Positions 7,868 to 59,313 are shown, counted from the whole stretch's first letter. The stretch: DNA of 63,126 bases, filler included, from Stramenopiles sp. TOSAG23-3 (GCA_900128585.1; 31 parts of 31 records of this genome joined end to end with filler, not necessarily neighbours in it); one strand, 5' to 3'. Numbers and translations are program-made. Notes: generated from the letters alone by a model not told the origin.

Positions 7868-7915
7868 AAAACAAATAATTGCTGTTATTTAGGTATTTAA
7901 ATTCATATTACTGAG
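7868..7915 (+). repeat. 3'-element family copy (degenerate)
   Basis: aaaacaaataattgctgttatttaggtatttaaattcat, about 290 bp after the stop at 7579. Confidence 0.65.
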
Positions 7916-7994
7916 ATTCTAGCAATTTAAAAAAAAATAATGTCTGTCATATAATAGCTTTATTCAGCATTTAAAAATATATAATAAAAGTTGG

Positions 7995-8111
7995 ATGAGG
8001 AAGTTGATTAAGGGTCATGTGGAAGCATTGCCAATCCATCTACTGATTCAGATCATAAATGGAGTACATCTGAGAATGATAGTCAAGACTAAGTGACAAG
8101 GGTATATCGAT
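7995..8111 (+). repeat. Second dispersed repeat family (~117 bp); other copies at 20981-21045 (-) and 54977-55021 (+)
   Basis: gatgaggaagttgatta..ggaagcattgc..aatcc is shared with 54977. agatcataaatggagtacatctgagaatgatagtcaa..aagtgacaagggta is shared (reverse complement) with 20981. Confidence 0.85.
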
Positions 8112-8212
8112 NNNNNNNNNNNNNNNNNNNNNNNNNNNNNNNNNNNNNNNNNNNNTTAATTAATTAANNNNNNNNNNNNNNNNNNNNNNNNNNNNNNNNN
8201 NNNNNNNNNNNG

Positions 8213-8737
8213 AATTCCTCTGCTTTCCGAAATCCTATCCATGCACGTGCTTATTTTTCCACCGGTCCCACGTCAACGGACGACTCGGTTGATTCAACCG
8301 CGCCGAAACCGAAACGTGGGAAGAAAGGGGGAAGAAAGAGGCGAAAGAAAGCACCAGGGGGGAAAGAAGTGCCATCCCCGACGGAAACCGAATCTGCTGC
8401 AAAACCGAAAAAAGACGACGAAAAAAAGCCTGGTAAACTGCAACAAATCAAGATGTACATAAAGGAGTACAAGTGGGTATTTTTAGCGTATTGGACTGGC
8501 ACGTGGGCTGCCGGTGCCGTAGTATGCTACGGGGCCCTGGAAGTTACCGGAGTAGATGGCATCGGGATTCTTCGCTACTTAGGCTCGGATAATATTTATG
8601 ATATATCGGGATGGAACCCGAAAATTGTAAATGGGTTCCTTGCTATTGAAATAAATGAATTTTTGGAACTGGTCCGTTTCCCCGTAATTCTTGCGACTAC
8701 ACCCAAACTTGCAAAGTGGTGGCGAAGCGAAAAGTAA
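8213..8737 (+). CDS. 5'-partial FAM210/DUF1279-like mitochondrial membrane protein
   Basis: KIK.YIKEYKWVFLAYWTGTW..GVD..GFLAIEINEFLELVRFPVILATTPKLA. The upstream open frame contains ARAYFST, resembling a presequence cleavage site. Confidence 0.75.
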   Translation, partial: NSSAFRNPIHARAYFSTGPTSTDDSVDSTAPKPKRGKKGGRKRRKKAPGGKEVPSPTETESAAKPKKDDEKKPGKLQQIKMYIKEYKWVFLAYWTGTWAAGAVVCYGALEVTGVDGIGILRYLGSDNIYDISGWNPKIVNGFLAIEINEFLELVRFPVILATTPKLAKWWRSEK

Positions 8738-8808
8738 AGAAGAAAGATGAGGGGACAGCACATTTCATTTAGTAAAGAAGAAAGATGAGAGGACAGCACA
8801 TTTCATTT
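8733..8808 (+). repeat. 38-bp tandem duplication spanning the stop codon
   Basis: agtaaagaagaaagatgag(g/a)ggacagcacatttcattt occurs twice with one mismatch. Confidence 0.9.
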
Positions 8809-8810
8809 TT

Positions 8811-8906
8811 AAATTACAGCCAATTTTTTGTTTTTAAACTAAAAATGATAAGCAAGAAAATTGGCTGTTATTTAAGTAATCAAAATTCATGTACTGCGAG
8901 CTGAAC
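8811..8906. repeat. Inverted pair of 3'-element copies between convergent genes
   Basis: acagccaattttttgttttt (8817, -) and caagaaaattggctgttatttaagtaatcaaaattcatgtactgcgagctgaa (8853, +). Confidence 0.85.
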
Positions 8907-8966
8907 TCTAGATTTAGACTAAAATTTATTAAAAAAACAACTTCAGTATAAGGCCTATGATAGATG

Positions 8967-10160: not shown

Positions 10161-10260
10161 NNNNNNNNNNNNNNNNNNNNNNNNNNNNNNNNNNNNNNNN
10201 NNNNTTAATTAATTAANNNNNNNNNNNNNNNNNNNNNNNNNNNNNNNNNNNNNNNNNNNN

Positions 10261-12208
10261 CGCCCCGGGAGACCCACCGCCGCCTCCTGAACTTTTCGGG
10301 TTGCCCCCCGCCCCCGCCCCGGGAGACCCACCGCCGCCTGGGACGCCATTGCAGCTGCAGAGGATTTCGAAATCGCCACATTTTCTGTCACGGTAGCAGC
10401 ATTGGGTTCGATCTCACCCCCAACAATTGTCTGCGATACTGTCTTGGATTGCCTCATTCGTTCGTCCAACTTTGCACCATGCTGCAACAGCTTTCGACCC
10501 GCAGAGGATCTTCCTGGGTTTGCATGTAACGCTTTAAGCCGTTTCTGCGCTTCAAAGTACGACAGACAGGAACTGTATTTTTGTTCAATCTGAAACGCGG
10601 AAAGCCGGCATTGCAGATTTGTGTCTAAAATCTCCACACAAACGTTTGAGAGAGAATGGTTCGATGTTTCCCGGTATTTTTCGAACGCTTTCACAAGGGT
10701 AGATTTTGAGTAGTTGGAATTTTCCCAAAACTTTAGCAGTCTGCTGTGATTTTGCAAGCACGATGCCCCCATGTTGTCCGTTTGAAAGCGCGATAGTGCA
10801 GAAAGGCAGTGCGGCTCTTCCAGGTTGTAGCTCATGTTTCCCATTTTTATAATCGCAGCGCATGATGCGTAGCGCAAGATCCGTGCCCGTTTGGCTCGGG
10901 AAGTTTCGTTCGACGCTGTATCGTTAAAAATGTCAAAAATTATGCGCTGGTGAAAGTTAGGCGGGGTTCCCAGTTTTGTGGATTCGTTGGGCAAACTTGC
11001 AGAATCCTGTACCCGGAGGGTTTTGTTCGCAGTTGGAACGCGACGAAACACGCCCAGCCGGGCCCTAAGAGCGCCATCATTCGTCCCCTCCGTGATTGAT
11101 GGGGTTGATGGGGTTGGAAAGTCAACCAAAAGGAAGAAACGGGGTGAAACTTTCATCACATACGGATACATATGAAGCTTCTGCAGTCGATTGTTCCCGG
11201 TGTGGATATGGTGAGTCGCCATTCCTAAGTCCTTAAATTTGAACGGATTGGCCCAGTTTAGGAATTTCTTTGCGTTATCTATGATTGGGGCTGCCTTATC
11301 TATGATTGGGGCTACAAAGGGTTTTGCCACATTAATGCCTGTTTGGACCGTTTGTTTTACAAACGGCCGGGTGCTGTCGATCATTGTGTTTACATTCTGA
11401 TCTACCCACGAATTGGTATAAACCGTGCTGGCAGTCATTCCACCAGCCAATGATCCCGTCGTAGCCCCTATGGCCATACCCGGTACAGCTCCAACAACAG
11501 GAACCGTGACCCCACCGGTAAAACTTCCGGCAAGTTTACCGAATTTGGAACCAATGTTTTGCCCCAATTTCGTCACCAAGAAATTGTCCACTTGTTTCAC
11601 ACTGCCAAGAGAAAAATCGGTAATTTTTCCAGCCAATGACGCATCGTTGCTGTTTGCCATTTGGGTAGTACCGCCGGAAACGATACCATAGGCATTCAAC
11701 GCAGTCCCCGCACCTTTCACGCCCTTCAATGCTTTAGTAAGAGTGGGGTTAGAGGTTGGCACTACAGCACTTGGCTGCACGGGTGAACTTCCCATGTTAT
11801 ATTTCCCCAGCCCGTTTGCCGGACCAAGCTGTGAGGCAGATGGTGACGTGCCCCACCCTGGTTGAGTCACTACTTTAGGGGCCAGTGGATTCGATTTCGG
11901 TGCAGGCACTAGATTTGGCTGCACGGGTGGTGAACTTCCCATGTTATATTTCCCCAGCCCGTTTGCCGAATCAAGCTGTGAGGTAGTTTGTGTCGTGCCC
12001 CACCCTGGTGGAGGCACTACTGCAGGGGCCCTTGGATTCGATTTCGGCAGATTCGATGTCGGTGCTGAACTTCCCCCGTTTCCCGAACCAGGCAGTGTGC
12101 CGCTTGCTTGGTTTACCTGGGCTGACTCCAGCGCTAGTTTTGCTGTATTTTGCGAGACCCCAAGGACATCGTTGGTGGTTTGATCCAGGGCATGATTGGC
12201 GAGAGGTG
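10261..12208 (-). CDS. Partial hypothetical protein with Pro/Gly-rich tandem repeats, a glycine-zipper segment and a Cys-containing helical region
   Basis: Frame open across the whole contig. A ~48-aa repeat (PGWGT..SQL..ANGLGKYNMGSSP) occurs twice, GGVTVPVVGAVPGMAIGATTGSLAGG is present, and there is a 54-bp repeat at 10261/10315. Confidence 0.7.
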
Positions 12209-12387
12209 NNNNNNNNNNNNNNNNNNNNNNNNNNNNNNNNNNNNNNNNNNNNTTAATTAATTAANNNNNNNNNNNNNNNNNNNNNNNNNNNNNNNNNNNN
12301 NNNNNNNNCGAAGAAGAGGAGAAGAAGAAGACGATGACTCTGGTTTTGTTTTATTGATTGTTGTTGCAGCTGTTGTTGTGTTGAAGT

Positions 12388-12799
12388 GGCCAAACGGCGA
12401 CTAAGGGATGAGAAACGGCTGCAGAAAGAGAAGGATAACTTGAAATTTATTATCCAGGAGGCTCAGGAGAAGCAGCTGGCCGCGGAAGCGGAGGCGAAGA
12501 GGGTGAAGCAGCAGCTCGCAAACTCTCCCGGAAAAGGGCTGTACGCATCTGTCCCTGACCTTCGCATGACTACGGACTTGGGCTCGTTCGCGGAGCACGA
12601 CGTTCCATTGTACGGTTCCCTCCCCACGATCGAGTCGGCGTCCCCGAGCCCAGCGAAAGCGCCGATGAGCCTTTCGGAGCATGCAGACATTCAGCGAGAG
12701 GAAGAGCGGAACGACAGGCTCGCGCTGTACCGGGAGCAGCAGCGGCAAAAAGAGAAGAACAAGAGCGAGATGTACTTTTGGAGGCACAGCAAGAAATAA
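12388..12799 (+). CDS. C-terminal fragment of a coiled-coil protein
   Basis: GC-rich, E/K/R/Q-rich frame ending in TAA. The 5' part is abruptly replaced by the contig's inverted terminal 79-mer. Confidence 0.55.
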
Positions 12800-12914
12800 A
12801 ACCAGGCAAATCTCCAAACGCGAAACGTATACTCTTTTTGGTTTTTATTGGTGGCATGTATGTTTTATACACCAAATAAAATATAGACAGAAAAAGTACA
12901 AAAAATAAAAAATA

Positions 12915-12943
12915 TAAATAACAGCCAATTTTCTTCTTGTTTT
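12915..12943 (-). repeat. 3'-element family copy
   Basis: taaataacagccaattttcttcttgtttt. Confidence 0.8.
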
Positions 12944-13036
12944 AAATAAAAAAAAATATGATATTTTAATTAAATTAAAAGAAAAAAACAAAAAAGGAGG
13001 AGAAGAAAACAAAAAAAAAATTAATATATTATCGGC

Positions 13037-13095
13037 GGTACGGGTACCTAGGTACCTGTACCTGGTATATACCTGGTACCAGGTACCGTACCGGT
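13037..13095. repeat. GGTACC/GTAC palindrome-rich tract
   Basis: ggtacgggtacctaggtacctgtacctggtatatacctggtaccaggtaccgtaccggt. Confidence 0.85.
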
Positions 13096-20489: not shown

Positions 20490-20822
20490 GGAGCTGCATT
20501 ACAGTTTGCATCAAGCGCATTGAGGGGGGATCGGGAAATCGTCTTAGCTGCAGTTGAGCAAAATCCCATTGCGCTACAATATGCTAACGGTTCCATGCAG
20601 AAGGACAAATCTATTATCATGACAGCCGTCAAGAAAGACGGCATTGCAGTACGATGCACTATGAAAGAAATGCGGCAAGACTATGATATTGCGCGCGCTG
20701 CGTGCATACAAACAAGTAAGGCACTCCCGTACCTAAGCGAAGAGCTGCAAGAGCGCTTGAGAAAAGAATTGTATGAGGGCAACTTGAACGATTTTGATTT
20801 GGTCGAGTCTTCGGTGGAATAG
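20490..20822 (+). CDS. C-terminal fragment of a DUF4116-type short-repeat protein
   Basis: ALQFAS..LRGDREIVLAAVEQNPIALQYA..DKSIIMTAVKKDG repeats. Confidence 0.8.
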   Translation, partial: GAALQFASSALRGDREIVLAAVEQNPIALQYANGSMQKDKSIIMTAVKKDGIAVRCTMKEMRQDYDIARAACIQTSKALPYLSEELQERLRKELYEGNLNDFDLVESSVE

Positions 20823-20891
20823 TCAGGCATGCAGTACGTTTAAACGTTTGTGTTAAAAGTGTTCAGTTCAATTTGAGATTCTGATTTTTTT

Positions 20892-21375
20892 AAAACAAGA
20901 AAATTGGCTGTTATTTTTAAGTAATTAAAATTAATGTACTGCGAGCTGAAATCTATCTTTGCTCTTTTGGTCTTTACTAATCGATATTTACCCTTGTCAC
21001 TTAGTATTGACTATCATTCTCAGATGTACTCCATTTGTGATCTGATTTTATTAAACAATTCTGATTCAAACCAAATATATGCAATTATTAAAAACAAGAA
21101 AATTGGCTGTTATTTAAGTAATTAAAATCTTTAGATAAATTATCTTAAGTTAATCTCTATATGTGACTAAACTTACCTCTCTCCTTATTAATATTGAAAT
21201 TTCAATCCATTCTTCTTCGTCGCAATTAATTTTTTTTTTTAAATTTAATACTTACATGAGAAAGCTAAATTTTAATTACTTAAACATACTTAATTAACAT
21301 ACTAAATAACAGCCAATTTTTCGTTTTTAATAATACACTTAAAATTACATAAAACCGCCAGTATTTTGTTTTTAA
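20892..21375. repeat. Cluster of 3'-element copies (+ at 20892 and 21090; - at 21261-21328 and degenerate ~21345) with a second-family insert at 20981-21045
   Basis: Direct sequence matches to the core motif. Each pair is oriented sense to its adjacent convergent gene. Confidence 0.9.
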
Positions 21376-21429: not shown

Positions 21430-22432
21430 TTATCTCGCCATCAACTTGTCACATTTGGATTCAACACATTTTGTGCTGGTGTGCCATTTGTTTTTGACGC
21501 ACATTTTGTCCGGGTATTGAAAAGCAACACCGTAAGTGTGCCTTAAATACAGCGATTGCTGATTCATGCAAAACGTTGTTATTCCATCAAAGTTACACGT
21601 TCTTAATGGGAATACCCAGTTCAAAGGAATGATTTCAGGCCTATAGGTAAGGTGATGCTGCGTCCCTAAATAATGCTCCGGGACCCCACCCGGGTCATCA
21701 AAATGTTCTAATATACCCCATATATCTACGTGCCTATCGTCGCCCTTCCTAAAGTAGCGCGCAATAGGGGCAACAAAATCAACAGACATGCCACGATGGT
21801 ATTTCCTATGCTCCCAATGCGGCTTCTTGAAGTCTGGGGTGACAACTAATTTTGCTCCATACATACTCTTCAACCAATTTTTGCGCCGTGACAAATTGAA
21901 AAGTCTCTCGCCGTTTCGAAACAGGACATACACGTCAACGTCAGTGTCATATGGAATTGATCCATTCCATACGCTCTGCCCCAATGCTGTGCCGTAACAG
22001 AGCCAGTAGGAAATGTTTTGTGTCTCCGCAAACTTGTGAAACGAACGAATCAGCGCTTTAGCCCTTTGACGAGTGCGGGTATCCGCAGCGGCATCGCATA
22101 TAAACGGTGTATTGCGATGCGGTTTGTTTTCGTCTTGCAGAGTCATCTGTTTGACCAGAGCTGGCGAAGGCACGCCCGCCTTAGGGCAATTTTGTTCTAG
22201 TGATGCACCAAGGGAAAATTTCCAGCCTGGGCGCTTGTCTGCCAGTTCCTGACAGGATATTTTCTTAACCAGCGGTATTTGGTCTCTTTCGTTCTTGTGA
22301 TCCCACACACCCGGAATACACTGTGTTCTCCATGTTTTACCATACTCCCAGTCCAGATAAGCTCCCATTTCATGTGGCCCCCGAACTTTCACGCCTTCCA
22401 ACGTTATCTCCTTCGTCGGAAAAAGGTACTCG
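21430..22432 (-). CDS. 5'-partial LicD/fukutin-family nucleotidyltransferase-fold protein with tandem LicD domains
   Basis: YWLCYGTALG..IPYDTDVDV, HVDIW and WVFPL..C.FDG..YLRHTYG. The upstream EYLFPTKEITLEGVKVRGP..YLDWEYGKTW is the end of a preceding LicD domain. Confidence 0.88.
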
Positions 22433-22532: not shown

Positions 22533-22580
22533 GAAGCTAAATTTAATTACTTAAATAACAGCCAATTTTCTTGTGTTTTT
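22533..22580 (-). repeat. 3'-element family copy at the contig edge (degenerate second copy at ~22625)
   Basis: gaagctaaatttaattacttaaataacagccaattttcttgt. Confidence 0.9.
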
Positions 22581-22665
22581 TTGAGGCAAGGTAAAGATAA
22601 CAAAACATTGCATTTGTTTTTTGTACTTAAATAACAGAAAATTGTCTTTTAAAAACACAGCCAGT

Positions 22666-24476: not shown

Positions 24477-24915
24477 NNNNNNNNNNNNNNNNNNNNNNNN
24501 NNNNNNNNNNNNNNNNNNNTTAATTAATTAANNNNNNNNNNNNNNNNNNNNNNNNNNNNNNNNNNNNNNNNNNNNTTTAAACGTCGCAGGCAGTGTTTCG
24601 CTGGGCAGCGCGAGTACCGATACCATAACGATAAAGTCCCGTGTAGTTCACAACAACAACAACAACAAATAAAATAATTTAATAATAATTCTTCCTCCTT
24701 CCTCCTATATATATAGTCGTCTATCTCTTCTTCATCTTTTCTTCTCCTCTTTCTGCCAGTGTGTTTTGGTGCTAAAGAGGTTTGCTCTTGCTTGGTGACA
24801 GATACAATAAGATCGGCTTGAACTTGAATTATCTCGAACCAGGAGGACGACTATCGATAAAATAAAAGTAATAAATAAAACATTTAAAACCCAACAACAA
24901 CAAAATATTTTGTTT

Positions 24916-24980
24916 TTAATTTCCTAAATAACCGCCATTATTTTGTTTTTTAATATCTTAGCAGCCAATATTTTGTTTAA
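24916..24980 (-). repeat. Two degenerate 3'-element copies just after the stop at 24996
   Basis: taaataaccgccattattttgtttt and gcagccaatattttgttt. Confidence 0.65.
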
Positions 24981-24995
24981 AACATTTTTTTCTTC

Positions 24996-30703: not shown

Positions 30704-31258
30704 GATACGTTGTATGGTGCGTGTGAAGATGGTGACTATAAAGCCGTGAAAAAGCTTGTTCGCAAAGGCGCTGATGTAAACTACGTGAACCCAAACAAAA
30801 AGAACAAAACGCCATTGATGGAAGCGTGCAAATGTTTGAGTGAGCCAATAGTAAAATTCTTGATTGAGAAGAATGCAGATCTTAATTTGACTGACACAGA
30901 CGGATGGAATTGTCTTCACTGGATAGCGTTTAAAGGTCATGCCAAAATTATGATCTTGCTACTGGAAAAAGGCGCTAATTTTATGCAAAAAAGCACCAGT
31001 GGTTCCACCCCATATGATGTCGCCACTCAGTTGACCTCTCAAAAGAAGACTCAGTGCGAGTTTGTATTGAAACAATGGATGAATAAGCTGCCTGCAAACA
31101 AGCGACCGAAGGATACTACTGAAGGGAAGGGAAACTGGAATTATTCGTACCATGTTCCTAGAAATTCTACAGGCAGGTGTTCTCTCGACCGTACAACGGG
31201 ATGGGACGATACGTGGGAAACGGAGAAAAAAGAGACGCTGGGAAGCACAAAAAAGTGA
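30704..31258 (+). CDS. 5'-partial ankyrin-repeat protein
   Basis: GADVN..KTPLMEAC, DTDGWNCLHWIAFKGH and GSTPYDVA. Confidence 0.88.
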   Translation, partial: DTLYGACEDGDYKAVKKLVRKGADVNYVNPNKKNKTPLMEACKCLSEPIVKFLIEKNADLNLTDTDGWNCLHWIAFKGHAKIMILLLEKGANFMQKSTSGSTPYDVATQLTSQKKTQCEFVLKQWMNKLPANKRPKDTTEGKGNWNYSYHVPRNSTGRCSLDRTTGWDDTWETEKKETLGSTKK

Positions 31259-31375
31259 GATTTTCCTGAGTCACCAACATACTAATCAGCGCAGGAAGCA
31301 ATAGCAAATTTTTAGAAATGTTTGGTGAAATGAGTCTACTATCGTCAATTTTCACGACGTGTCCTTATTACTATT

Positions 31376-31482
31376 AAAAACAAAACATTGGCTGTTGTTT
31401 TAAAAAGTAATTTATTTACCTTCTCCTTATTATAACTTATAAGGAAAAAAAGCATATTATATAGTATGTTTTAAGACTCTCT
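31376..31482 (+). repeat. 3'-element core plus tail module
   Basis: aaaaacaaaacattggctgttgttttaaaaagtaattt followed by atagtatgttttaagactct. Confidence 0.75.
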
Positions 31483-32364
31483 CATTTTAAATCAAAAAGC
31501 ATATAGCATCATATGCATATTAAATATATGAACTTTTATAGAGGTGAATCTGTATTGAACAAATCGATCCTTCGCCCTTCTCCCAATCAAAGTCCCTGAA
31601 AGTTTAAAAATAATTTTGATTTTGTCCACTAACAACAAACCAGAGAAGCAACTGCGTAATTAAAATCCTGGGGACTAAATCCTAAAAACTTACAACAAAG
31701 ACCATTTTCTTTAATAATGTTTAGGAGTAAAACAATGCGTAAATGTAGACCTCTAATGTGCCTTTCTTTAATTTATCACAGTTCGACGGGATGTTCACAA
31801 AATCAAAACGATAAACAAAAAAAAACAACGAGCAAAAAGAAGCGAAATGATAGAAACTCGAGACCGAAGAAGAAAAGAACATGGAGAAGGGGGGGGGGTT
31901 AACCTGAGTGGTTTGCAATCAAATGAAAACGTTTACATTAAGGGACATGTCATTGATCCCAACGTTACTTGCTTTTCAAGCAGTCGGGGGCGATTTTACC
32001 GTCTGGTCAATAGGCGTATCTGGTGAACTGACATCTCCCGCACGTTAGGATGGGCCCGTTTGTACGATGAAGTCGTTCTCCTCTGGGAAATTCGCTGCGG
32101 ACCATAAGCTTTTCTGGATCAATTTACTACTTATCATTAAGTCTAACACTGTTTATCCTCTTGTGTACCCGATGCATGATCAGAATTGCTATTTGGATTC
32201 TCGACGATGTCATATTACCCATTCATCAACTTCTTCACCCGGTACCCCGACTCATAAATGAGTCAGAACTTGTGTGAATCTATATTTTATAAAATTAAAA
32301 CGTATGTTCTTGAGCAGAGATAAGTTCGCTGCACATGAAGGAAAGTAAAACTTTTATGGACACA

Positions 32365-32643
32365 AGGAGCAGGTTCACATTCGCGGTACAAGAAGAAGAC
32401 CATTTTTACTCCGTAATTACTTAAATAACAGACATTTTTTGTGTTCAAAAGTAATGTTAATAATTAAAATAAAATTAATGAACAAAAGGAGCAGCTTCAC
32501 ATTCGCGGTACCTGGTACCTTGGTACATGAAGAAGAAGATAAAATTTTAATTTACTTCCAAATCATGAGACGAAATTACAGAATCAAGTTAGGATTAGGG
32601 TACGACGAAGCTAAATTTAATTACTTAAATAACAGCCAATTTT
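32365..32643 (-). repeat. Tandem pair of extended 3'-element copies ending at the contig edge
   Basis: aaggagcag(g/c)ttcacattcgcggtac occurs twice, each followed by aattacttaaataacag. The segment aaattacagaatcaagttaggatta is shared with 40985. Confidence 0.85.
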
Positions 32644-34128: not shown

Positions 34129-34784
34129 GTGACAGAATTCTGAAACCTTGGTCCGGTTCGTGGCGCCCATCGTTCAGAGGATACAGAACGAACTCTTGGG
34201 CGAACCTTTCGTACCACACCTTCGCAATTTATTACCAAAAGTTCTACACCAATTATACTATACGTAATTTTTTTATTCTTCTTGTTGTCTTATTTAATTT
34301 TATTTTACCACAGTCTTCGATATTTCCATTGTAATGCAATGTATTATATTATATAGACATAGCATAGAGATAAAAAGAAAGAAGAAGAAAACTCCATCCG
34401 GTATCTTTGGCGCGGAATTGAAAAGTGACACCGGACTTTGTGTAAACTATTTGAAACGAAGAGATCTTTATGAAAAAAAGACAATTTTCATAATTTTAAA
34501 CAGTCAAATGCCCTTTTAGATATATAAAATTGTGCCCCTATGATTCGTTTTTCCCAATCCCACAAATGAATAAGTGTTTGTCCGGGCGATATATGGTCCA
34601 AATGGTCCATTTCACAAAAAATTGTCCCTAGGAACCGTAATTCCAAGTCAATGGAGGGCAAACAATTTATAAACGTTCGTTTGNNNNNNNNNNNNNNNNN
34701 NNNNNNNNNNNNNNNNNNNNNNNNNNNTTAATTAATTAANNNNNNNNNNNNNNNNNNNNNNNNNNNNNNNNNNNNNNNNNNNNG

Positions 34785-36614: not shown

Positions 36615-37234
36615 GAAGTTACAGCGGAGATTCAAGTATTTAAAATAAATGTTTACATTAGATTACACGCACTCTCTATTAAGTAGGAACGAAAAAGGAG
36701 GTACCGGCCGACTTTAAGTGATNNNNNNNNNNNNNNNNNNNNNNNNNNNNNNNNNNNNNNNNNNNNTTAATTAATTAANNNNNNNNNNNNNNNNNNNNNN
36801 NNNNNNNNNNNNNNNNNNNNNNATATATAGCAATACATTGTTATATTATAATTACTTATAAATGTATACTAGTCGTTCTACTATTGGGATATCAGTATTT
36901 ATTTATTTAATTAATTTAGAGAGAGAGAGACTAATAAAATGAAGAGCTGCTCTATACACTAACGATTTACTCATATATAAGGGGGATATAATAAAATGAA
37001 TTATTCAATGAGGTTTTAGGTAGGTTGTGTATGATACATATGTGTTTGCGTGTGTATGTGCGTTTGAGTAAAGGGGGCATGGATGGTGTGAAAGAGTTGG
37101 ATTTGTTTTCTTTCTTGGTCGGATTGTGAGGTCTCCATTGAATGTACAGTAAAGAAAGTGAATCAATTGTCGATAGGTTTTAGGTTATTCAGTTTCGTCT
37201 GGGTAGCAGTGAAAATCGGAAGGTTCAAGGCAAA

Positions 37235-40984: not shown

Positions 40985-41080
40985 AAATTACAGAATCAAG
41001 TTAGGATTACGTAGGGTATGAGGAAGCTAAATTTAATTAGTCTACTTAGTCTATAAATAACAGCCAATTTTCTTGTTTTT
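40985..41080 (-). repeat. Extended 3'-element family copy
   Basis: aaattacagaatcaagttaggatta..gaagctaaatttaatta..taaataacagccaattttcttgttttt. Confidence 0.88.
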
Positions 41081-41476
41081 ATTTTGTATTATATATTGGT
41101 GTACCGTTTTAAAATCGACAAAGCTTGTTGTTGTGGTATGGACCACAAACACTCCTCGTACTTCTTTCTCCCTATGGAAGCAGCAATCAAAGCACTTTAG
41201 GTTTAACATATAAATACAACCGATAGATGATACAAATATCATTAGGAGAAAAAATAATAATAATATAGCCGCCGCCATCATCTAATTAATAATAAGATGT
41301 CGTCTATAAAAAATAATTTAAAATATACATATATATGGTTTGACTGCCCCCCGCTCCCGCTGCCGAGTGGAACAGCGCAGTAAAACAAAAACCCTTCGGC
41401 ACCACCCCCTGTTTTAGGTGACTTAAATAAGCACTTTGCTTTTAATTTTATTCTACAATCTACACACACGACTACC

Positions 41477-43037: not shown

Positions 43038-43084
43038 AAAACAAACAATTTGGCTGTGTTATTGTTATTTAAGTAAATTATTAA
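43038..43084 (+). repeat. 3'-element family copy (degenerate)
   Basis: aaaacaaacaatttggctgtgttattgttatttaagtaaatta. Confidence 0.7.
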
Positions 43085-44862
43085 TTATTTTTCTTCGCTT
43101 CCATCTTTCCCCTCTGCCAATTTATGCAAATATCTCCCTTCGATGTTTCTGAGTACTGTCCCCATAACGTTTGTCACGGTGTGCTTTGCAACAATGGACA
43201 TGTCCCTTTTAAATCGTTGGATAATTTCTTTGGTTAGGATCCTCACCTGGCAGCTGAACACTGCATATGGAATTACTTCGGCCAAGAGAGACTTTGCGAA
43301 GACGCTAGTCATGCATTTGTTCAAGTTTTTCCGTATCAGTTTCTTTGTGTATACCTTGATCTTGGTTTTCTTGAGTGCCCTCTCCAACGTGGATGCTGAA
43401 AGCGTCCTGGCGACAGTTTCCGTATCAATACGCATTGAGAGCTGTTGGATGGCCCTATTGCGCCCGAGAAAGCGTGGGGGAACATCAAGCCTTTGTCGAG
43501 CAATTTGGGAGACCCGCCAGTGCCGCCGTAGCTGGTCCAGCGCTTTGTGAATAGTATACGATGAAATACGAATCGTCTCTGCCGAGGAGATAGCATGGAA
43601 CGTTTTCTTTCGTTGCTGGTATCGCGGGCTGTCGGGGGTGCCAGAATTTCCACGGGTGTAGATGCTATTTGGCAAGTAATCGTGCGGGATAATATACATG
43701 GCAGCGGAGCGCCTGTGCACGCTGTTGTCGGACGTATTTCTGCCGGCGCTCAGGTACATACCGCGGTGCAGGCGTATGCTATTTACTTTGTCTACGCGAC
43801 TTTGGTTGTACTTTCGTTTCTCCAGTTCTTTCCTATTTTCCTCTTGCATCTTGTTGTTGTACTTTTCCTCGGCATTTTTCAAACCTTCCGCAAGCAGCCC
43901 TTTTCTTCTACCCTGTTCCGCCCGCGCTTCTTTTGCGTGTTTCATTGCCAAAAAGTGTTCCCACTCGGCGTTCATCTTCTCTCGCTCTTCGCTTTCTCGC
44001 TGTTTTTGAGCCCGCAGGGCATGTACAAACTCACGTTCGGCTTCGATTTTGCTTCTCACCCCTAGTTCGTGGCGGTCCAACCGCGTGGCCATTGCTTTTG
44101 CCAAACACCCTTTGGTCAGGTTCCAGGATACATCCTTTCTCACTTTTGAATTGGCTCTACGCTGCATTACTTTTCGTGAGATGGATTTCACGCTCGCTTC
44201 AGCCGATTCTAAATTTCTGTACTTCAGTATTGTGGTTGGGCGAAAGCACACGGTTGACAAATTTATCAAGTCGAGCTTCTCCCTGTACGTCACCCCGCCA
44301 TATGCGGCCCCGAAGGATTTTGCTAGCGGGACCCGAGATGTTGTTTTAACCCCTGTGGTCTCACGGATCCACTCTTGAAGGCGCTTCTTCCGGCGCCGTT
44401 TGCATTTTTCTCGGCCCAAATGCCCCCGGTACATCCTCTGGATTGCGGTTGCCATTCGAGTGTTTCTGCGGTACACAAGCAGTTGCATGTACCTCCACCC
44501 TCGCACTGCCCTGTACCAACACTGTATGTACGTCGCACACGATCTCTCTTGCTCTCGTCGGAGGTCTACCAAGTAGAGAAACTTCTGTGTGGTCCTTCTT
44601 TGGAACGAAAACATTCTCCAAACTCTTTGAATGGAAATCGTCTTTGAGACCAAGGTGTCGTAGAACCCCTCTTCTATTCGCACTTCCGGGCCCAACCGAA
44701 TCACTTTTGCCAGGTCTCCCGCCCACATGGATTCCCATTTCTTCACCGCCCGTTCTTGCGCAACGTCCCAGGCGTCTTGTTCGATCATATGTTTTATGCG
44801 CAGCTCCTCTTCCTTGTTTTTCAAAATTCGCCGGTGCTCTCTTGCCCCTTTTCTACCCTTTC
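43085..44862 (-). CDS. 5'-partial IQ-motif basic coiled-coil protein
   Basis: IQRVWR, IQCWYR and IQRMYRGHLGR. Confidence 0.8.
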
Positions 44863-46996: not shown

Positions 46997-48822
46997 GAAG
47001 CGTACTCCAACGAGAAAAGGAGGCCAGACCATGTTCTCTTCCCCTCTGATCCCAGACTCCCCGTTTTCTGCCTTTGCCGGTAGCCTCTCGCCGTTGATGA
47101 TGATGAATGGTGGCTCGTCCATCCCAAACTCGCTGTCAAACACTCCAAACTGGAATGTGGACTTGGGCTCCCCGATGATGCAGAATGATATGGACCAACT
47201 TTTGTTGCCTGGAGGTGCAGGTATGGGGTCTCCGGCGTTCTATGGCAGGATTCCCAATCGAGCCCGCGCTCCTATTTCCGCAAACGATTCCGATTCGAAA
47301 AGGCAAAAAGGAACGTTCGTCCAACGCCTCGATTTCCAAAAAGAAGCAAATGGGCTAACCTTGGGCGGCTCCGGAGGGAGAAGGATGCGTTTCCAGATTA
47401 TGCCTGGCGCAGGCATGTCCCAAGGGTTGATCCCAATGGATACTTTTGATGAACCGGAGCCAGGTTCATTTAATCCTATGTCGCCGTCAACGTCTCCGCG
47501 CACTTGGAACCGGCTGCGAAACACGGACTCTACCGGTGTCATGGAGGACTTCATGAACTCCGTCGGCAGAACCACACCAAATACTCCCAGGATGCAAGGT
47601 GCGTCGGTGTCAAAGCAAACGCCGGTTAACTCGAGCTCTTCGGCCAAGAAGGGGGGGAGAGGTAGCGCCAAATCCCGGGCGAAAGCAAGCAACACTTCGT
47701 CCCGAAAAATATCTGGAAGCAAAGGAAGTGCTTCAAAGTCTAAGAAGCCTTCCAAGAACAACTCGAAATCGACCGTCAAGACCGTCAAGCGCAAACGTTC
47801 TGGTGGCTACGGAGGTGGCCCCGATACATTTCGATCGCCTGCCCCTCGCTCCACAGGATCTAATTCTACGAAGGCGAGATTTAGTGGGAACAGTCGCCAG
47901 CGTGCTGCTGATCGCTCTGCCGATACTTCGCTTACCGCAGGTGCCCAAGAGGAAGCACGAGAACCGTGCAACTGCAAAAAAAAGTAAGTGCTTGAAACTT
48001 TACTGCGTCTGCTTCGCGGCTGGAATTTACTGCAGTGGGTGCAATTGCACTATTTGCGAAAATAACAAAGAGAATGAAACTGCGCGAAGAGCTGCGGTCC
48101 AGGCAACACTAGAGAGAAATCCGCATGCGTTCAAGCCCAAAATCAGCAACTTGGACCAAGATCCCAAAAAGGGAAGCGATGATGTGGAGCATAGCAAAGG
48201 ATGTCACTGCAAAAGAAGCTTCTGTTTGAAGAAATACTGCGAATGTTTTCAAGCAAATATATTCTGCGGTGCAAATTGCAAATGTGAAAATTGTCAAAAT
48301 TTTCACGGAAGCCCGATGCTTACCAAAGCGTCAGCAACTAAAAAGTCTCGCAGTGCGGGGCCACGGGGTACATCCGTCCGAATTGTTCCTTTGCGATCAG
48401 TAAAACCAGGGCAGTCCCTCGCGTTCATAACTTCGGCAATGCAAGCTGTGAAGAAGAATAAACGTGCAAATGTATCGCTTGCAGTTGGCGGTAGTGGAAA
48501 GAAAACTCAAGTGCGTAATTTGTCTCAAAACACTGCAAAGAAAAGGCACGAGTCTCGAAAAACTGCAAACGCTGCTCGGTCGCTTCCAGGGGCTTCGTCC
48601 ACAACATCGATTCCATCCCGGCCAACTCGTCGGTTCAACATCGGGAAAGATTCGCCATCTGAAACGCGTATATTTGGAACTCGTAAACCCAAAATTAAAA
48701 AAAATGTGGTATTTAAAATCTTCTCCTTCCTTGACAATGAAGACTTGCTCGAAGCAAGTCTAGTCTCTAAGCAGTTTTCAGACCGTGCGCTTGACGAGGA
48801 AGTTTGGCATATGAAGCTTTAA
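46997..48822 (+). CDS. Tesmin/TSO1/Lin54-like double CXC (CRC) domain protein with a C-terminal F-box-like motif; +1 frameshift at 47976-47987
   Basis: PCNCKK / [14 protein letters not shown] is split across two frames. Also RNPHAFKPK and [22 protein letters not shown]. Confidence 0.9.
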
Positions 48823-52991: not shown

Positions 52992-53578
52992 NNNNNNNNN
53001 NNNNNNNNNNNNNNNNNNNNNNNNNNNNNNNNNNNTTAATTAATTAANNNNNNNNNNNNNNNNNNNNNNNNNNNNNNNNNNNNNNNNNNNNTACATTCTA
53101 ATGTAATACTACCACGCAGTATTCTACGATGCACGTTCAATACTTACAAAATCACCAAAAAAAATTTGGGCTGTTAAAAGGTCGCATTCGACAATTTCTC
53201 CCTATGTAACGTAACCCCCCCCTTCTTGAAAGCATGAAGTAGCACCCGGCGGTTGACCTTAGGCACAATTATAAATTAATAATATGAGGAGATTTTGAGA
53301 AGGAGGTGTTGTTTGTACTTGTAATTGGTATAAAAATAGAGTTGGGCGACCCGGGACATCAAAACAAGAGATAGGGAACAGCTCCAATAGATGCGCACGA
53401 AGACTTTTTATTGTATTTTTATGAATCACTGTTCATTTTGTTTGAGAATGAAATAGAAATGTGTGGCGATTTTGGACAAAAAGTTAGTGAACTCGCACCC
53501 AACGGATTTAGGTTGCAATAGGGCTTCTTTAACTAGCGCGGGGGGCTGGAAACAATTGTATGCACACGACGAAAAGGA

Positions 53579-54521: not shown

Positions 54522-55121
54522 GGCAAACCAGGCCAAGCAGAAGGCCGGTCTCCAATAAAATTGATATATATATATGGTGAGAAAGGATTTTAGGTTTCAG
54601 GCAAATCTAGTCGCCCCGTTTCATAAAACAAGCTTGCCCACCAAATAGAGATACAGACAACGACACCATTTTTATTTTTTTAAGAAAATTCAGCCTTGAA
54701 TACCCCGCCGGGACGGCAGTATGGAGTGCGCCACTCCCCCTACCCCTTGGAAAAGTGCGAGTCAGGCTTGGAGAGAGGATAACCGTTTAACACTTGCACG
54801 GACTGAAACGTTGGGGGACGTCAAACGCCTCCTCCAATTCTTTTGTTGCGCAACCAAAACAAATATTGCCTCTTGATTATATACGCAATTTCGTAAATTA
54901 ATTTTAATAATTCAGTAAAAATATTTTAGTTTTAAAACATTTACACAAGGAATGAGTCACCTATGAATGAGACACCGGACGAGGAAGTTGATTATGGGTC
55001 ATCTGGAAGCATTGCTAATCCNNNNNNNNNNNNNNNNNNNNNNNNNNNNNNNNNNNNNNNNNNNNTTAATTAATTAANNNNNNNNNNNNNNNNNNNNNNN
55101 NNNNNNNNNNNNNNNNNNNNN

Positions 55122-57031: not shown

Positions 57032-57148
57032 TCCAAACCATGTCGATGNNNNNNNNNNNNNNNNNNNNNNNNNNNNNNNNNNNNNNNNNNNNTTAATTAA
57101 TTAANNNNNNNNNNNNNNNNNNNNNNNNNNNNNNNNNNNNNNNNNNNN

Positions 57149-57225
57149 TTCTTTTTTTGTTTTTGTTTGTTTGTTTGTTTGTTTGTTTGTTTGTTTTTGT
57201 GTTTGTTTGTTTGTTTTCTTTTTTT
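57149..57225. repeat. (TTTG)n microsatellite
   Basis: Direct reading of the sequence. Confidence 0.9.
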
Positions 57226-57326
57226 CTGAAAATTTAATGGACACGTCCTCTCTCTCACGCTGAGCGAGTAAAAGAAAATGCGTGCACCCCCTTCTTCCCC
57301 AATCCTCTGTTTCGTATTCTCTCCTT

Positions 57327-58463
57327 TTAGTTCGACGCCGTGATTTTATATAGCCCTGCCCTCATCCTCATTTTCTTCGCTGTCTCGGACGCTTTCTCCG
57401 CTTTGATCCGTAAGTCGTTTAAATTTCTGTAAATAATACTATGCGAAACCGTCTTGAAAATTTCAGGGTCCGTTTCGTTGCTAGGGAGGCCTCGCTCTAT
57501 GCGCAAAACGCGATTGCGTTCGCACACGTGGACGGCTTGTTTTCTAATGGCGTCCAGCAACTGCTTGCGTGCAGCCGCTGCCCCGTTTCCTAATACAATC
57601 GATTCCATCATGGCGTCTACGTCCTGGCCAGGCTGGGGGTTGGCTACGGCGGTCTTGACAGCCTTGGTATCGTTCGCAATTTTTGCTAAGCGGACGATCA
57701 CTTGCTGTTGCACGACAGCGGCCTCTTTCTCCAATTTCGTGCACATCGTCTCCGCGGATTCAAACCGGCGCTTGTCCAAAGCCACCAGTTGCTTCTCCGT
57801 GCTGACCCGTATCTCCTTCGCAACATCGTACTTTGCTTTCACAGCATTCACTTTCTTGCGCTGCGGTATGATGAAATCGACCTTTTCTTGAGAGCATTCC
57901 GTCTTGTTGATCCCTTCGTTCAACATCGAGTTGGTCGCACGGATGGTTTCGCTACGGTTGAAACTCATGTAAGCCTCGCGGGTTGCAATTCTAGCCCCTT
58001 CCATGCACACGATAGCGGCACTGACGCGGTCCTTCAGCTCCTTGGTTTCCCGATCCAACCAAAATTTTGCGATGGTCTCGTTTAGCATTGCCTCTTCTAG
58101 CTCGCGGCCGCTTTTGCGCATTTCCGACATTTCGTCGTCGTTCATTTTCTTTAACCTCTTCGGGGTGTGCGTAAAGTTGCCCTTGCCGTCGTCTGGGAGC
58201 TGGGCGTGCGGGAGCGCCGTGTTCGTCGTGTATTTTTCCGGGCAGTCTGGGTCAATTTCCGTTTCGACGGTCTCTTTTGTCTGATTGCCTTCGGACATCT
58301 CGAGGAACATGGCATTGTACACGCCCGCTTGTTGGCTCAACATTTGTTGCATTTGGCATCGTTTCATCAACTGCCGCTCCTGATCAACACGCAAAGAGGT
58401 CGCCCCAGCCGTGTCCGCCAGAAGCCCGGCAGCGCATGCTGCTAATACCAAAACCCGTTTCAT
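57327..58463 (-). CDS. Secreted helical/coiled-coil hypothetical protein
   Basis: Signal peptide MKRVLVLAACAAGLLADTAGA; complete ORF. Confidence 0.8.
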   Translation of the reverse strand: MKRVLVLAACAAGLLADTAGATSLRVDQERQLMKRCQMQQMLSQQAGVYNAMFLEMSEGNQTKETVETEIDPDCPEKYTTNTALPHAQLPDDGKGNFTHTPKRLKKMNDDEMSEMRKSGRELEEAMLNETIAKFWLDRETKELKDRVSAAIVCMEGARIATREAYMSFNRSETIRATNSMLNEGINKTECSQEKVDFIIPQRKKVNAVKAKYDVAKEIRVSTEKQLVALDKRRFESAETMCTKLEKEAAVVQQQVIVRLAKIANDTKAVKTAVANPQPGQDVDAMMESIVLGNGAAAARKQLLDAIRKQAVHVCERNRVLRIERGLPSNETDPEIFKTVSHSIIYRNLNDLRIKAEKASETAKKMRMRAGLYKITASN

Positions 58464-59216
58464 TCTTTCTTCAAATCAAATACAGATAATAAATATATAT
58501 TTACTCTGTTCAATATGAATTTAGACAAACAGAACATGAAACCGGAACTCGTGCACAATGGCATGCTCTTTCATTTTCATTCCCTTCCCCCTTTCGATAT
58601 CCATTCCCTTCCCCCCTTTCGATACTCATTAAACGACATGTTCGATTCAATCCAAAATCCAAAATAATAAAATGAAAGACAAGAAATTGTCATATTTTAT
58701 ATTTTCACGTACATTATATAAATAAGAACAATTATAAAAGAGAGATCAAAGAAATTAGTGTATAGTTACTTCTATATACAACGCTTCATTTCATTTTTCA
58801 ATTAAGTACGTTTGACTTCAAGAATAAAACATCGTCGATTCTCTTCTATTACTATACACCCAATAGTACAAAAAAAGTAAAATCACGAAGTGATATACAC
58901 TGGATGTTTATGAATAATTCCTTACTTTACTAGCAGACGTTATTCATATGTAAACTAGCCCATTCTTTAGGTCATGTTCAGTAGTTACATTCCTTTATGG
59001 AATCCATGATGACATTTTATAGTAAAGCAATGGTGCATATTAGTATACGAATAATAATAGTTATGATATTATCANNNNNNNNNNNNNNNNNNNNNNNNNN
59101 NNNNNNNNNNNNNNNNNNTTAATTAATTAANNNNNNNNNNNNNNNNNNNNNNNNNNNNNNNNNNNNNNNNNNNNATGAATTTTAGCAGTCGCAAAATTAG
59201 ATCAGTTCTACAATTG

Positions 59217-59313
59217 GGATAATCTTGAGAGTCTTAAAACATACTATATCATTAGTTTTTTTCATTTATGCTAAATTTAATTACTTAAATAACAGCCAAT
59301 TTTCTTGCTTTTA
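59217..59313 (-). repeat. 3'-element core joined to the TAGTATGTTTTAAGACTC tail
   Basis: gctaaatttaattacttaaataacagccaattttcttgctttt, preceded by ggataatcttgagagtcttaaaacatactata. Confidence 0.9.

What the first reader, a model, noticed from the sequence alone, without database searches (positions are those of the whole stretch)
7868..59313. Strand-oriented ~40-bp element that marks gene 3' ends across unrelated contigs
Seen: the core AAAACAAGAAAATTGGCTGTTATTTAAGTAATTAAATT occurs about 15 times: 7868+, 8817-, 8853+, 12915-, 20892+, 21090+, 21261-, 22533-, 24916- (x2), 31376+, 32414-, 32607-, 41023-, 43038+ and 59270-. Most copies lie within ~350 bp downstream of a stop codon and in that gene's sense orientation (stops at 7579, 8737, 8967, 13272, 20822, 21430, 22666, 24996, 31258, 59620). 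Between convergent genes (8737/8967 and 20822/21430) both orientations occur. I found no copy in the long 5' flanks at 36823-37234, 53092-53578 or 58464-59074. Exceptions: 43038 is antisense to its neighbour, 12915 is antisense to the nearer stop at 12799, 32414/32607 have no matching gene on the contig, and 41023 adjoins only a small doubtful ORF. Inference: this is much longer than a eukaryotic poly(A) signal. It may be an undescribed 3'-end/termination or mRNA-fate element, or a short mobile element that targets transcript ends. The antisense strand reads CAGCCAAT (CCAAT-box-like), so a DNA-bound terminator or insulator is another option.
Basis: partly seen in the sequence, partly recalled or inferred. 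Interest (0 to 1): 0.8.

Follow-up and report, generated by a model that had tools for sequence, protein, structure and literature searches.

The report
Truncated retroposon tails at gene ends
The repeated 40-base motif is the constant end of a family of short mobile-element copies that, in this compact genome of an uncultured marine protist, sit almost only in the DNA just after genes.

Summary
The repeat is real. The 14-nt core occurs 16 times in the window against 0.7 expected.

The window is 31 short contigs of an intron-poor marine eukaryote. Across 110 related contigs (747 kb), 173 of 180 copies lie nearest a stop codon. Copies occur in 65 of 91 convergent intergenic regions, 20 of 109 tandem regions and 0 of 52 divergent regions.

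The claimed sense orientation is weak: 102 sense against 71 antisense.

The motif is not a free-standing signal. Copies are flanked by 9-15-nt target-site duplications: 21 of 142 copies have 12 nt or more, against 1.65 expected. One end is constant. The other end varies, giving inserts of 21 to 338 nt. The target site reads T-rich | (T/A)AA.

This is the signature of target-primed reverse transcription with 5' truncation. The motif is the 3' tail of a LINE/SINE-like retroposon, read on the opposite strand.

The copies appear in metatranscriptome contigs. No RNA structure, Rfam family or partner reverse transcriptase was found. Whether the 3'-flank restriction reflects targeted integration or selection remains open.

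The parts
7866..7903 (+). Degenerate copy of the repeat head, about 290 nt downstream of the stop at 7577-7579. The inferred RNA-sense strand of the retroposon is the opposite one.
   Evidence: 10 mismatches of 38. Core with 2 mismatches.
8798..8835 (-). Degenerate copy between the convergent genes ending at 8737 and 8967. It is 61 nt from the + gene's stop (antisense to that gene) and 132 nt from the - gene's stop.
8849..8887 (+). Head copy followed by about 50 nt of the 'A-type' body, then unrelated sequence (a truncated copy).
   Evidence: nhmmer E = 4.9e-11. Alignment row W05.
12915..12941 (-). Short-form copy of about 27-29 nt that ends right after the core. It is flanked by similar T/A-rich runs, which may be a low-complexity target-site duplication.
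   Evidence: nhmmer E = 5.4e-06. Flanks read.
20878..20886 (.). Target-site duplication, first copy (ATTCTGATT).
20887..21057 (+). Complete insertion of 171 nt: head at 20890-20932 plus an A-type body with an internal deletion. On the opposite strand it ends in a T-run followed by five A. It starts 65 nt downstream of the stop at 20820-20822.
   Evidence: row W11. nhmmer E = 2e-09.
21058..21066 (.). Target-site duplication, second copy (ATTCTGATT).
21088..21128 (+). Near-consensus head copy in the same convergent intergenic region.
   Evidence: 1 mismatch of 38. nhmmer E = 5.1e-12.
21303..21329 (-). Head copy 101 nt downstream of the stop of the - strand LicD-family gene (21430-22431).
   Evidence: nhmmer E = 8.3e-04. 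Core exact. Pfam LicD.
22539..22578 (-). Near-consensus head with the start of a 'B-type' body, cut by the contig start at 22533. It lies 88 nt downstream of the stop at 22666.
   Evidence: Sequence.
22616..22653 (-).
   Evidence: 12 mismatches of 38. Core with 2 mismatches.
24913..24950 (-). Degenerate copy 46 nt downstream of the stop at 24996. A second partial copy lies directly 5' of it on the same strand.
31362..31370 (.). Target-site duplication, first copy (TCCTTATTA).
31371..31423 (+). Insertion of 53 nt (degenerate head at 31376-31413), about 115 nt downstream of the stop at 31256-31258.
31424..31432 (.). Target-site duplication, second copy (TCCTTATTA).
32410..32447 (-). Degenerate head with a 'C-type' body. 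No gene on this contig side.
32613..32643 (-). Head cut by the contig end at 32643, followed on the - strand by a B-type body.
   Evidence: nhmmer E = 1.6e-07..
41054..41081 (-). Head copy in what is a 5'-5' (divergent) region, unless a 109-aa ORF is real. The same locus in a longer public contig (L075, 99.2% identical) shows the context.
43038..43075 (+). Degenerate head with an internal duplication. It ends 10 nt from the stop (43085-43087) of the - strand gene and is antisense to that gene.
59273..59314 (-). Near-consensus head 306 nt downstream of the stop at 59620.
   Evidence: nhmmer E = 8e-12.

Best explanation
The 40-nt motif is the constant terminal segment of a family of short interspersed mobile elements. 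It is not a free-standing gene-end signal.

What is shown:
- Each well-preserved copy is an insertion flanked by a duplicated 9-15-nt piece of target DNA.
- The end that starts with the A-run plus CAAG is always present.
- The other end stops anywhere, giving inserts of 21 to 338 nt or more that run into several different bodies (A, B, C, D types).

What is inferred:
- On the opposite strand this pattern is what target-primed reverse transcription produces. The fixed 3' end is the - strand of window 21091-21109, CAGCCAATTTTCTTGTTTT, sometimes followed by 1-7 A. The 5' end is randomly truncated. The nick site is AT-rich, reading T-rich | (T/A)AA.
- So the copies are most likely dead-on-arrival 3' fragments of LINE-like elements, or of RNAs that carry their tail, made by a reverse transcriptase that recognises this tail.

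Distribution:
- The copies accumulate just downstream of stop codons, most densely between convergent genes.
- They are essentially absent from 5' intergenic DNA of the same base composition.
- They are present in many RNA contigs, probably as parts of 3' UTRs or read-through transcripts (inferred).

Cause of the 3'-flank restriction: not settled. I put about 60% on purifying selection in a compact genome, where promoters and coding DNA cannot take insertions. I put about 40% on integration directed at 3' ends or termination zones.
For: Reality of the repeat:
- 16 core matches in the window against 0.70 expected.
- 105 of 120 metagenome contigs fetched with an 18-mer carry the extended motif.

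Target-site duplications:
- Of 142 copies with enough flank, 38 have flanking direct repeats of 9 nt or more (8.4 expected from mismatched flanks). 21 have 12 nt or more (1.65 expected).
- Lengths range from 9 to 15 nt, most often 12-13.

Truncation series:
- The distance between duplications is 21, 25 (five times), 32, 33, 38, 41-47, 51, 54, 61, 62, 79, 111, 125 ... 338 nt, always with the same end present.
- Head-anchored similarity between copies is a continuum from 36 to 486 nt.

Constant end and target:
- The constant end reads ...CTTG + T(0-5) + A(0-7) on the opposite strand in 32 filtered copies.
- The first base of the duplication is T or A in 32 of 32 copies, followed by A in 21 and A in 19, and preceded by T-rich DNA.

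Nested insertions into other copies, with duplicated flanks: rows L126 and L039.

Two window copies have duplications: 20878-20886 / 21058-21066 and 31362-31370 / 31424-31432.

Distribution:
- Nearest gene end is a stop for 173 of 180 copies.
- Regions with a copy: convergent 65 of 91, tandem 20 of 109, divergent 0 of 52.
- 23 of 25 tandem-region copies lie in the stop-proximal half.
- Among regions not selected by the search pattern: convergent 6 of 30, tandem 3 of 92, divergent 0 of 51.
- GC is 0.328, 0.344 and 0.337 in the three region types. Target-like hexamers differ less than 2.2-fold.

RNA: on L091 the repeat block has summed contig depth of 295, 265, 47 and 15 in four RNA runs. Gene bodies show about 3-6, and a 5' intergenic bin shows 0.
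Against: - No reverse transcriptase or endonuclease ORF ending in this tail was found in about 1 Mb. There is no multi-copy enzyme family among 498 ORFs. No RT family is among the 25 families listed for 86 neighbouring ORFs. A crude RT-motif regex gave 0 hits.
- Only 7 of 32 copies show any A-run at the inferred 3' end. There is no long poly(A) tail.
- No filled/empty allele pair for a copy was seen. The only indels between near-identical contigs (W21/L075, 100 bp; L100/L128, 2.6 kb) are not simple element insertions.
- About three quarters of copies have no detectable duplication.
- The loci were fetched with an exact 18-mer of the core. Core conservation cannot be judged from them, and region-type counts carry ascertainment.
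- Gene models are bare ORFs.
- The assignment of the sense strand leans on the known L1-type layout, which is recalled, not tested.
Confidence: 0.8

Rival explanations
1. The core is a selected cis-element for 3'-end formation, termination or mRNA fate. Either it evolved as such, or it is a retroposon tail since co-opted. It would be bound by a protein or read in the RNA, and this would be why it sits after stop codons.
For: Position is tightly tied to stops: median 113 nt for sense copies and 160 nt for antisense copies. It is strongly enriched between convergent genes, where termination matters most. It is present in RNA contigs, including oligo-dT libraries. The sense strand carries an ATTAAA hexamer a few bases after the core, read directly from window 21117-21125. 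A known precedent is Leishmania SIDER2 retroposons in 3'UTRs that control mRNA decay (abstracts of PMC5509151 and PMC5689007; passages of PMC2323293).
Against: Orientation relative to the nearest gene is only 102:71. The shortest copies (21-25 nt) lack the ATTAAA part. There is no RNA structure beyond shuffles on either strand (z = +1.10 and +1.26). There is no Rfam match. Many 3' ends have no copy: 89 of 109 tandem regions. Several copies often pile up in one region in both orientations. RNA contigs showed no poly(A) junction next to the motif.
Confidence: 0.12
2. It is a miniature DNA transposon (MITE) whose terminal inverted repeat is the 40-nt motif. Single copies would be solo ends.
For: Inverted pairs occur: 18 of 43 neighbouring pairs within 400 nt are in opposite orientation. 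One unit in L021 has the motif at both ends in inverted orientation, flanked by one 13-nt duplication.
Against: Of the 12 outward-facing (+ then -) inverted pairs tested for it, none shared a flanking duplication of 8 nt or more. Duplication length varies from 9 to 15 nt rather than being fixed. Single-ended copies of 21-338 nt each carry their own duplication, which cut-and-paste transposition does not produce. No transposase was seen.
Confidence: 0.04
3. It is a DNA-level site, such as a replication origin consensus, an insulator, or a roadblock-terminator binding site with a CCAAT-like core on the opposite strand. Such a site works in either orientation and is therefore favoured between convergent genes.
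For: The motif is nearly orientation-independent and has a strong preference for convergent intergenic regions. The opposite strand contains CAGCCAAT, read directly from the sequence.
Against: Nothing tested here speaks for protein binding. The density, about one copy per 4 kb in the window (16 in 60,126 bases) with frequent clusters, is far above what origins need. The insertion signatures show how copies arise without any need for function.
Confidence: 0.03

Closest known systems
Leishmania SIDER1/SIDER2 (short interspersed degenerated retroposons)
   Same: A large family of short, non-coding, degenerate retroposon copies lying predominantly in 3'UTRs. For LmSIDER2, 18.9% of copies are flanked by vestigial duplications of 11-19 bp, most often 13 bp (passages of PMC2323293). 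Here 38 of 142 copies have duplications of 9 nt or more, most often 12-13 nt.
   Different: SIDERs are about 0.5 kb, and their conserved hallmark is a 79-nt signature at the 5' end. They sit in polycistronic units, and a regulatory role has been shown experimentally. Here the conserved part is the 3' terminus, and most copies are 21-200 nt. Genes appear to be separate units in both orientations, to judge from their convergent and divergent arrangement. No function is shown. Sequence relatedness to SIDERs was not tested.
5'-truncated LINE copies and LINE-dependent SINEs that share the LINE's 3' tail
   Same: A constant 3' end, variable 5' truncation, variable-length target-site duplications, an AT-rich nick site, and several bodies sharing one tail. 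The abstract of PMC3747384 says SINE 3' ends derive from a partner LINE. The layout of L1 insertions is recalled.
   Different: No partner LINE was found. There is no tRNA-, 5S- or 7SL-like head (Rfam). The A-tail is absent or very short. Truncation is extreme, down to 21 nt.
Safe-haven targeting retrotransposons of compact genomes (Dictyostelium TRE5-A, yeast Ty1)
   Same: A gene-dense genome, with insertions confined to a narrow class of harmless positions (abstracts of PMC3159450, PMC5391098 and PMC7459421).
   Different: Those elements are directed to RNA polymerase III genes by protein contacts. Here the positions are the 3' flanks of protein-coding genes, and active targeting is not demonstrated.
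SINEs that bring polyadenylation signals into 3'UTRs (dog SINEC_Cf)
   Same: Retroposon copies in 3'UTRs that can alter where transcripts end (abstract of PMC11699766). This is a possible consequence here.
   Different: No effect on transcript ends could be measured here.

Membership tests
Non-LTR retroposon copy made by target-primed reverse transcription | Target-site duplications of variable length flanking each insertion | tested here: met
   38 of 142 copies have 9 nt or more (8.4 expected). 21 have 12 nt or more (1.65 expected). Lengths are 9-15 nt.
Non-LTR retroposon copy made by target-primed reverse transcription | Constant 3' end with variable 5' truncation | tested here: met
   Inserts of 21-338 nt all contain the same end. 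Similarity extents run from 36 to 486 nt.
Non-LTR retroposon copy made by target-primed reverse transcription | AT-rich first-nick consensus at the 5' edge of the duplication (TT|AAAA type; recalled) | tested here: met
   T-rich | (T/A)AA. The first duplicated base is never C or G (0 of 32).
Non-LTR retroposon copy made by target-primed reverse transcription | Poly(A) or a defined simple tail at the 3' end | tested here: inconclusive
   The end is CTTG + T-run. Only 7 of 32 copies have 1-7 A after it.
Non-LTR retroposon copy made by target-primed reverse transcription | An autonomous partner encoding reverse transcriptase and ending in the same tail | tested here: inconclusive
   None was found in about 1 Mb of loci. 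The whole assembly was not available.
Non-LTR retroposon copy made by target-primed reverse transcription | Filled and empty alleles of the same site | tested here: inconclusive
   Only paralogous evidence exists: insertions nested in other copies, rows L126 and L039. No allelic empty site was found among the overlapping contig pairs at 90% identity or more, whose two indels are not element insertions.
SINE in the strict sense (RNA polymerase III transcribed) | A tRNA-, 5S- or 7SL-derived head with an internal promoter | tested here: not met
   No Rfam family at gathering score in the window and four element-rich loci. None at E of 1 or less in contig 11.
MITE / cut-and-paste DNA transposon | Terminal inverted repeats and a duplication of fixed length | tested here: not met
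   Single-ended copies each have their own duplication of 9-15 nt. None of the 12 outward-facing inverted pairs tested share a duplication.
Polyadenylation / termination signal | Works in one orientation, at a fixed distance upstream of transcript ends | tested here: inconclusive
   Orientation is 102:71, which speaks against it. Transcript ends could not be read from RNA contigs.
Hairpin-type 3'-end signal (giant-virus 'hairpin rule'; recalled) | A stable palindromic hairpin in the RNA | tested here: not met
   Fold energy of the head is no better than shuffles on either strand (z = +1.10 and +1.26). There is no extended match in viral contigs: 0 of 8.
Leishmania SIDER family | The 79-nt trypanosomatid retroposon signature | not tested
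Only papers were read.

The most novel reading that the evidence does not exclude
The retroposon machinery behind these copies is actively directed to the termination zones of RNA polymerase II genes, above all between convergent genes. That would be a safe-haven integration strategy not described for any retroelement. The copies then become parts of hundreds of 3' UTRs, where some may have been taken over as terminator or mRNA-decay modules.
Probability: 0.3. Interest if true: 0.7.

Novelty: new member of a known kind. Interest (0 to 1): 0.42.

Why it matters
This turns an apparent 'giant poly(A) signal' into something explainable: the tail of a retroposon family.

It also documents a very clean distribution in an uncultured, widespread marine protist. 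The organism was found in runs of 15 studies. All detectable interspersed repeats sit in 3' flanks, at 58.7 per kb between convergent genes against 0 per kb in divergent regions. Base composition does not explain this.

If the restriction is due to targeting, it would add a new class of integration-site choice. If it is due to selection, it gives a sharp picture of which DNA is dispensable in a compact eukaryotic genome.

On the practical side, the repeat breaks assemblies of this organism. Two window contigs end inside it. It should be masked before anyone infers regulatory motifs from 3' flanks.

Tried and rejected
L091, a 13.4-kb contig of the same population, was used instead.
- All four RNA runs are stored as contigs. 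No poly(A) junction, strand or transcript end could be read from them. Two RNA contigs of different studies stop at 7195 and 7207, about 120-130 nt after a stop codon and before the repeat block. This is only a weak hint.
- Taxon: two protein-atlas look-ups, two homologue searches (only unnamed environmental proteins) and a paper search gave no name. Pfam shows an axonemal dynein heavy chain, formin, DOCK and calpain, so the organism is a flagellated heterotroph-like eukaryote.
- Rfam: nothing.
- RNA folding of the head: nothing. The strong hairpin in L120 only reflects two neighbouring inverted copies.
- Viral contigs: 8 chance 18-mer hits without extended similarity.
- Earlier findings of this scan: nothing.
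- A multi-copy Ser/Thr-rich ORF family next to long B-type copies (L019, L038 twice, L065) has no Pfam match. It could not be shown to belong to the element.
- Paper searches for the core string found nothing. Searches for retroelements targeted downstream of genes found no description of such an element. Only listings and abstracts were seen. Supplements were not available and might hold repeat libraries that bear on this.
Full report
WHAT THE WINDOW IS

The 63,126 bases are 31 contigs of 1926-1954 bp joined by N44-TTAATTAATTAA-N44 spacers. No whole genome is held for the window.

Long uninterrupted ORFs carry eukaryotic domains: formin GBD/FH3, IPT/TIG, WW, B-box, WD40, ankyrin, LicD, Tesmin/F-box, TNFR-like repeats and methylmalonyl-CoA mutase. 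Related contigs encode an axonemal-type dynein heavy chain in a single 1919-aa ORF, plus DOCK, calpain and SNF2.

So this is an intron-poor, flagellated eukaryote. Its DNA is held by marine and seawater metagenome runs of 15 studies, six of the holding runs being RNA libraries. I could not name it. Protein look-ups returned only unnamed environmental relatives.

THE OBSERVATION

The literal 38-mer is rare: 3 matches with up to 3 mismatches, against 0.00 expected. The 14-nt core TTGGCTGTTATTTA, with up to 2 mismatches, occurs 16 times against 0.70 expected. 9 are significant with a profile built from the family. Two contigs end inside a copy (22533 and 32643), as expected for a dispersed repeat that breaks assemblies.

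A WIDER SAMPLE

It also pulled 8 viral contigs. 105 of the 120 metagenome contigs carry the extended motif. None of the 8 viral contigs do. One locus (L075) is 99.2% identical to window contig 21, so this is the same population.

I used bare ORFs as gene proxies: at least 150 aa, longest first, non-overlapping. With redundant loci dropped (L052, L127, parts of L113, L128 and L068, and W21), the sample was 110 sequences and 747 kb. It holds 186 copies, 2 of them inside ORFs.

The main counts are:
- Nearest gene end: a stop codon for 173 of 180 copies, a start for 7.
- Regions with at least one copy: 65 of 91 convergent, 20 of 109 tandem, 0 of 52 divergent.
- In tandem regions, 23 of 25 copies lie in the stop-proximal half.

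The loci were chosen for having a copy, so I also counted only regions lacking the search 18-mer. Degenerate copies occur in 6 of 30 convergent, 3 of 92 tandem and 0 of 51 divergent regions.

Two cases are ambiguous. The window copy at 41054 (also in L075) and one region in L113/L023 are 5'-5' regions unless ORFs of 109 and 155 aa are genes.

Composition does not explain the bias. GC is 0.328, 0.344 and 0.337 in convergent, tandem and divergent regions. Target-like hexamers occur at 12.0, 7.2, 5.5 and 7.0 per kb in convergent regions, tandem stop-halves, tandem start-halves and divergent regions.

ORIENTATION

Relative to the nearest stop the split is 102 sense to 71 antisense (p = 0.02). For strong hits it is 83 to 58. 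In tandem regions it is 8 sense to 17 antisense. 'Strand-oriented' is therefore at best a mild bias.

WHAT THE MOTIF BELONGS TO

Aligning copies with their flanks shows that the motif is the head of longer repeats with several different continuations. The A type extends to about 200-300 nt. The B type is 111 nt in one complete copy and up to about 486 nt in others. There are also C and D types. The side starting with the A-run is sharp. The other side ends anywhere.

The decisive result is that copies are insertions. Of 142 copies with enough flank, 38 are bracketed by a direct repeat of 9 nt or more (8.4 expected when the flanks of different copies are paired). 21 are bracketed by 12 nt or more (1.65 expected). 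The duplications are 9-15 nt long, most often 12-13.

The DNA between the duplications measures 21, 25 (five times), 32, 33, 38, 41-47, 51, 54, 61, 62, 79, 111, 125 ... 338 nt, and always includes the same end. Some of these 41 candidates are repeats of element sequence. After removing those, 32 remain.

Heads are also found inserted inside the bodies of other copies, with duplicated flanks (rows L126 and L039). In the window, the 171-nt insertion at 20887-21057 is flanked by ATTCTGATT, and the 53-nt insertion at 31371-31423 is flanked by TCCTTATTA.

MECHANISM (INFERRED)

Four features point to target-primed reverse transcription by a LINE-type enzyme: a fixed end, a randomly placed other end, variable long duplications, and an AT-rich target. 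The layout of such insertions is recalled, not tested here.

On that strand the copies end in CAGCCAATTTTCTTGTTTT (the - strand of window 21091-21109), with a T-run of 0-5 and, in 7 of 32 copies, 1-7 A.

On that strand the duplication starts with T or A in 32 of 32 copies, then A (21 copies) and A (19 copies), and is preceded by T-rich DNA. The other edge of the duplication shows no motif. This asymmetry is what fixes the strand.

The mild orientation bias then reads as 59% of copies antisense to the host gene. That direction is usual for retroposons in transcribed DNA (recalled).

Inverted neighbours are independent insertions. The 12 outward-facing (+ then -) pairs were tested for a shared duplication of 8 nt or more, and none has one. 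This, together with the variable duplication length, argues against a MITE.

WHAT IS MISSING

I found no reverse transcriptase:
- No multi-copy enzyme family among 498 ORFs.
- Only ordinary host genes among 86 neighbouring ORFs: glutamate-cysteine ligase, MCM, Sec1, enolase, dynein and others. Only the top 25 of 124 matched families are listed.
- No hit to a crude RT motif.

No allelic empty site was seen either. So the class is inferred from insertion anatomy alone.

EXPRESSION

Contigs of four RNA libraries were laid on L091. The repeat block at 7169-7616 collects a summed depth of 295, 265, 47 and 15. The flanking genes show about 3-6, and the 5' intergenic bin 10305-10752 shows 0.

Many loose ends diverge exactly at the constant end of the copies (7458-7470 and 7662-7668). 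This means the same motif sits in many different RNA contigs. These are contigs, so strand, level and ends cannot be read. No poly(A) junction was seen.

The head has no fold beyond shuffled controls on either strand and no Rfam relative.

WHY ONLY 3' FLANKS

All interspersed 16-mers shared by at least 6 loci (354 words) give 58.7 occurrences per kb in convergent regions and 20.0 in tandem stop-halves. They give 1.1 in tandem start-halves, 0.13 in ORFs and 0 in divergent regions. These words are mostly from this family, so this is not an independent family.

The filtered copies with intact duplications, presumably the youngest, show the same pattern: 20 convergent, 7 tandem, 4 at a contig edge beside a stop, 1 at a contig edge beside a start, 0 divergent.

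Selection against promoter and coding insertions in a genome that is about 67% ORF can produce this pattern. So can integration directed to termination zones. The data here cannot separate the two. I lean 60:40 to selection.

COMPARISON WITH KNOWN SYSTEMS

The nearest analogue is the Leishmania SIDER family. SIDER2 has 1,073 copies, lies predominantly in 3'UTRs, and 18.9% of copies carry 11-19-bp duplication vestiges (passages of PMC2323293). It has a demonstrated role in mRNA decay (abstracts of PMC5509151 and PMC5689007). SIDERs keep a 5' signature and are about 0.5 kb, whereas here the 3' tail is kept and copies are tiny.

Retroelements of compact genomes that target safe positions are known for RNA polymerase III genes (abstracts of PMC3159450, PMC5391098 and PMC7459421). 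My searches (listings and abstracts only) found none described for the 3' flanks of protein-coding genes. The core string itself appears in no paper of the library.

VERDICT

This is a real, highly non-random repeat. It is a new family of a known kind of mobile element, not a new kind of gene-end signal. Its remarkably strict confinement to gene 3' flanks remains the open and interesting part.

Noticed in passing
window 34401-34681 (end of contig 17): A 283-bp stretch is 80-82% identical to segments of three unrelated public contigs (L055, L056, L059). It is another dispersed repeat family, and it is not head-associated.
   Followed up: no
window 41203-41301 versus L075 near 3410: A 100-bp insertion/deletion difference between the window contig and a 99% identical public contig, close to the copy at 41054. 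The extra DNA has no head and no clear duplication.
   Followed up: partly
L100:1519-4159 versus L128 near 8945: A 2.6-kb segment with two ORFs and the head part of a B-type copy is present in one contig and absent from a contig that is 97-99% identical. The junction falls inside the B-type body, suggesting deletion or recombination at repeats.
   Followed up: partly
L019:555-1163, L038:4142-4555, L038:5358-6122, L065:4576-4905: A multi-copy Ser/Thr/Asp-rich ORF family without a Pfam match. In L019 it ends 62 nt from a B-type tail, on the element's inferred sense strand. It could be part of a longer source element or a host gene family.
   Followed up: partly
Window about 59205-59240 (- strand) and about 31470-31490. 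Many loci.: A second short repeat module containing TAGTATGTTTTAAG occurs about 20 times in the loci, often next to heads. It starts with a similar A-run plus CAA end, so it may be a sister tail.
   Followed up: no
window 32560-32600 (- strand), 41000-41030, and B-type copies in the loci: The B-type body contains a telomere-like CCCTAATCCTAAC stretch (14-mers seen 15-16 times).
   Followed up: no
window 46998-47984 and 47557-48819 (+ strand): Two long ORFs in different frames overlap by about 430 nt on contig 24, upstream of a Tesmin-CXC/F-box protein. This may be a frameshift, a sequencing error or a rare intron.
   Followed up: no
L120:700-830: Two neighbouring copies, the second too degenerate for the profile, lie head-to-head in opposite orientation and form a long perfect-looking hairpin (-32 kcal/mol, z = -4.4). 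Such pairs in transcripts could give double-stranded RNA.
   Followed up: partly
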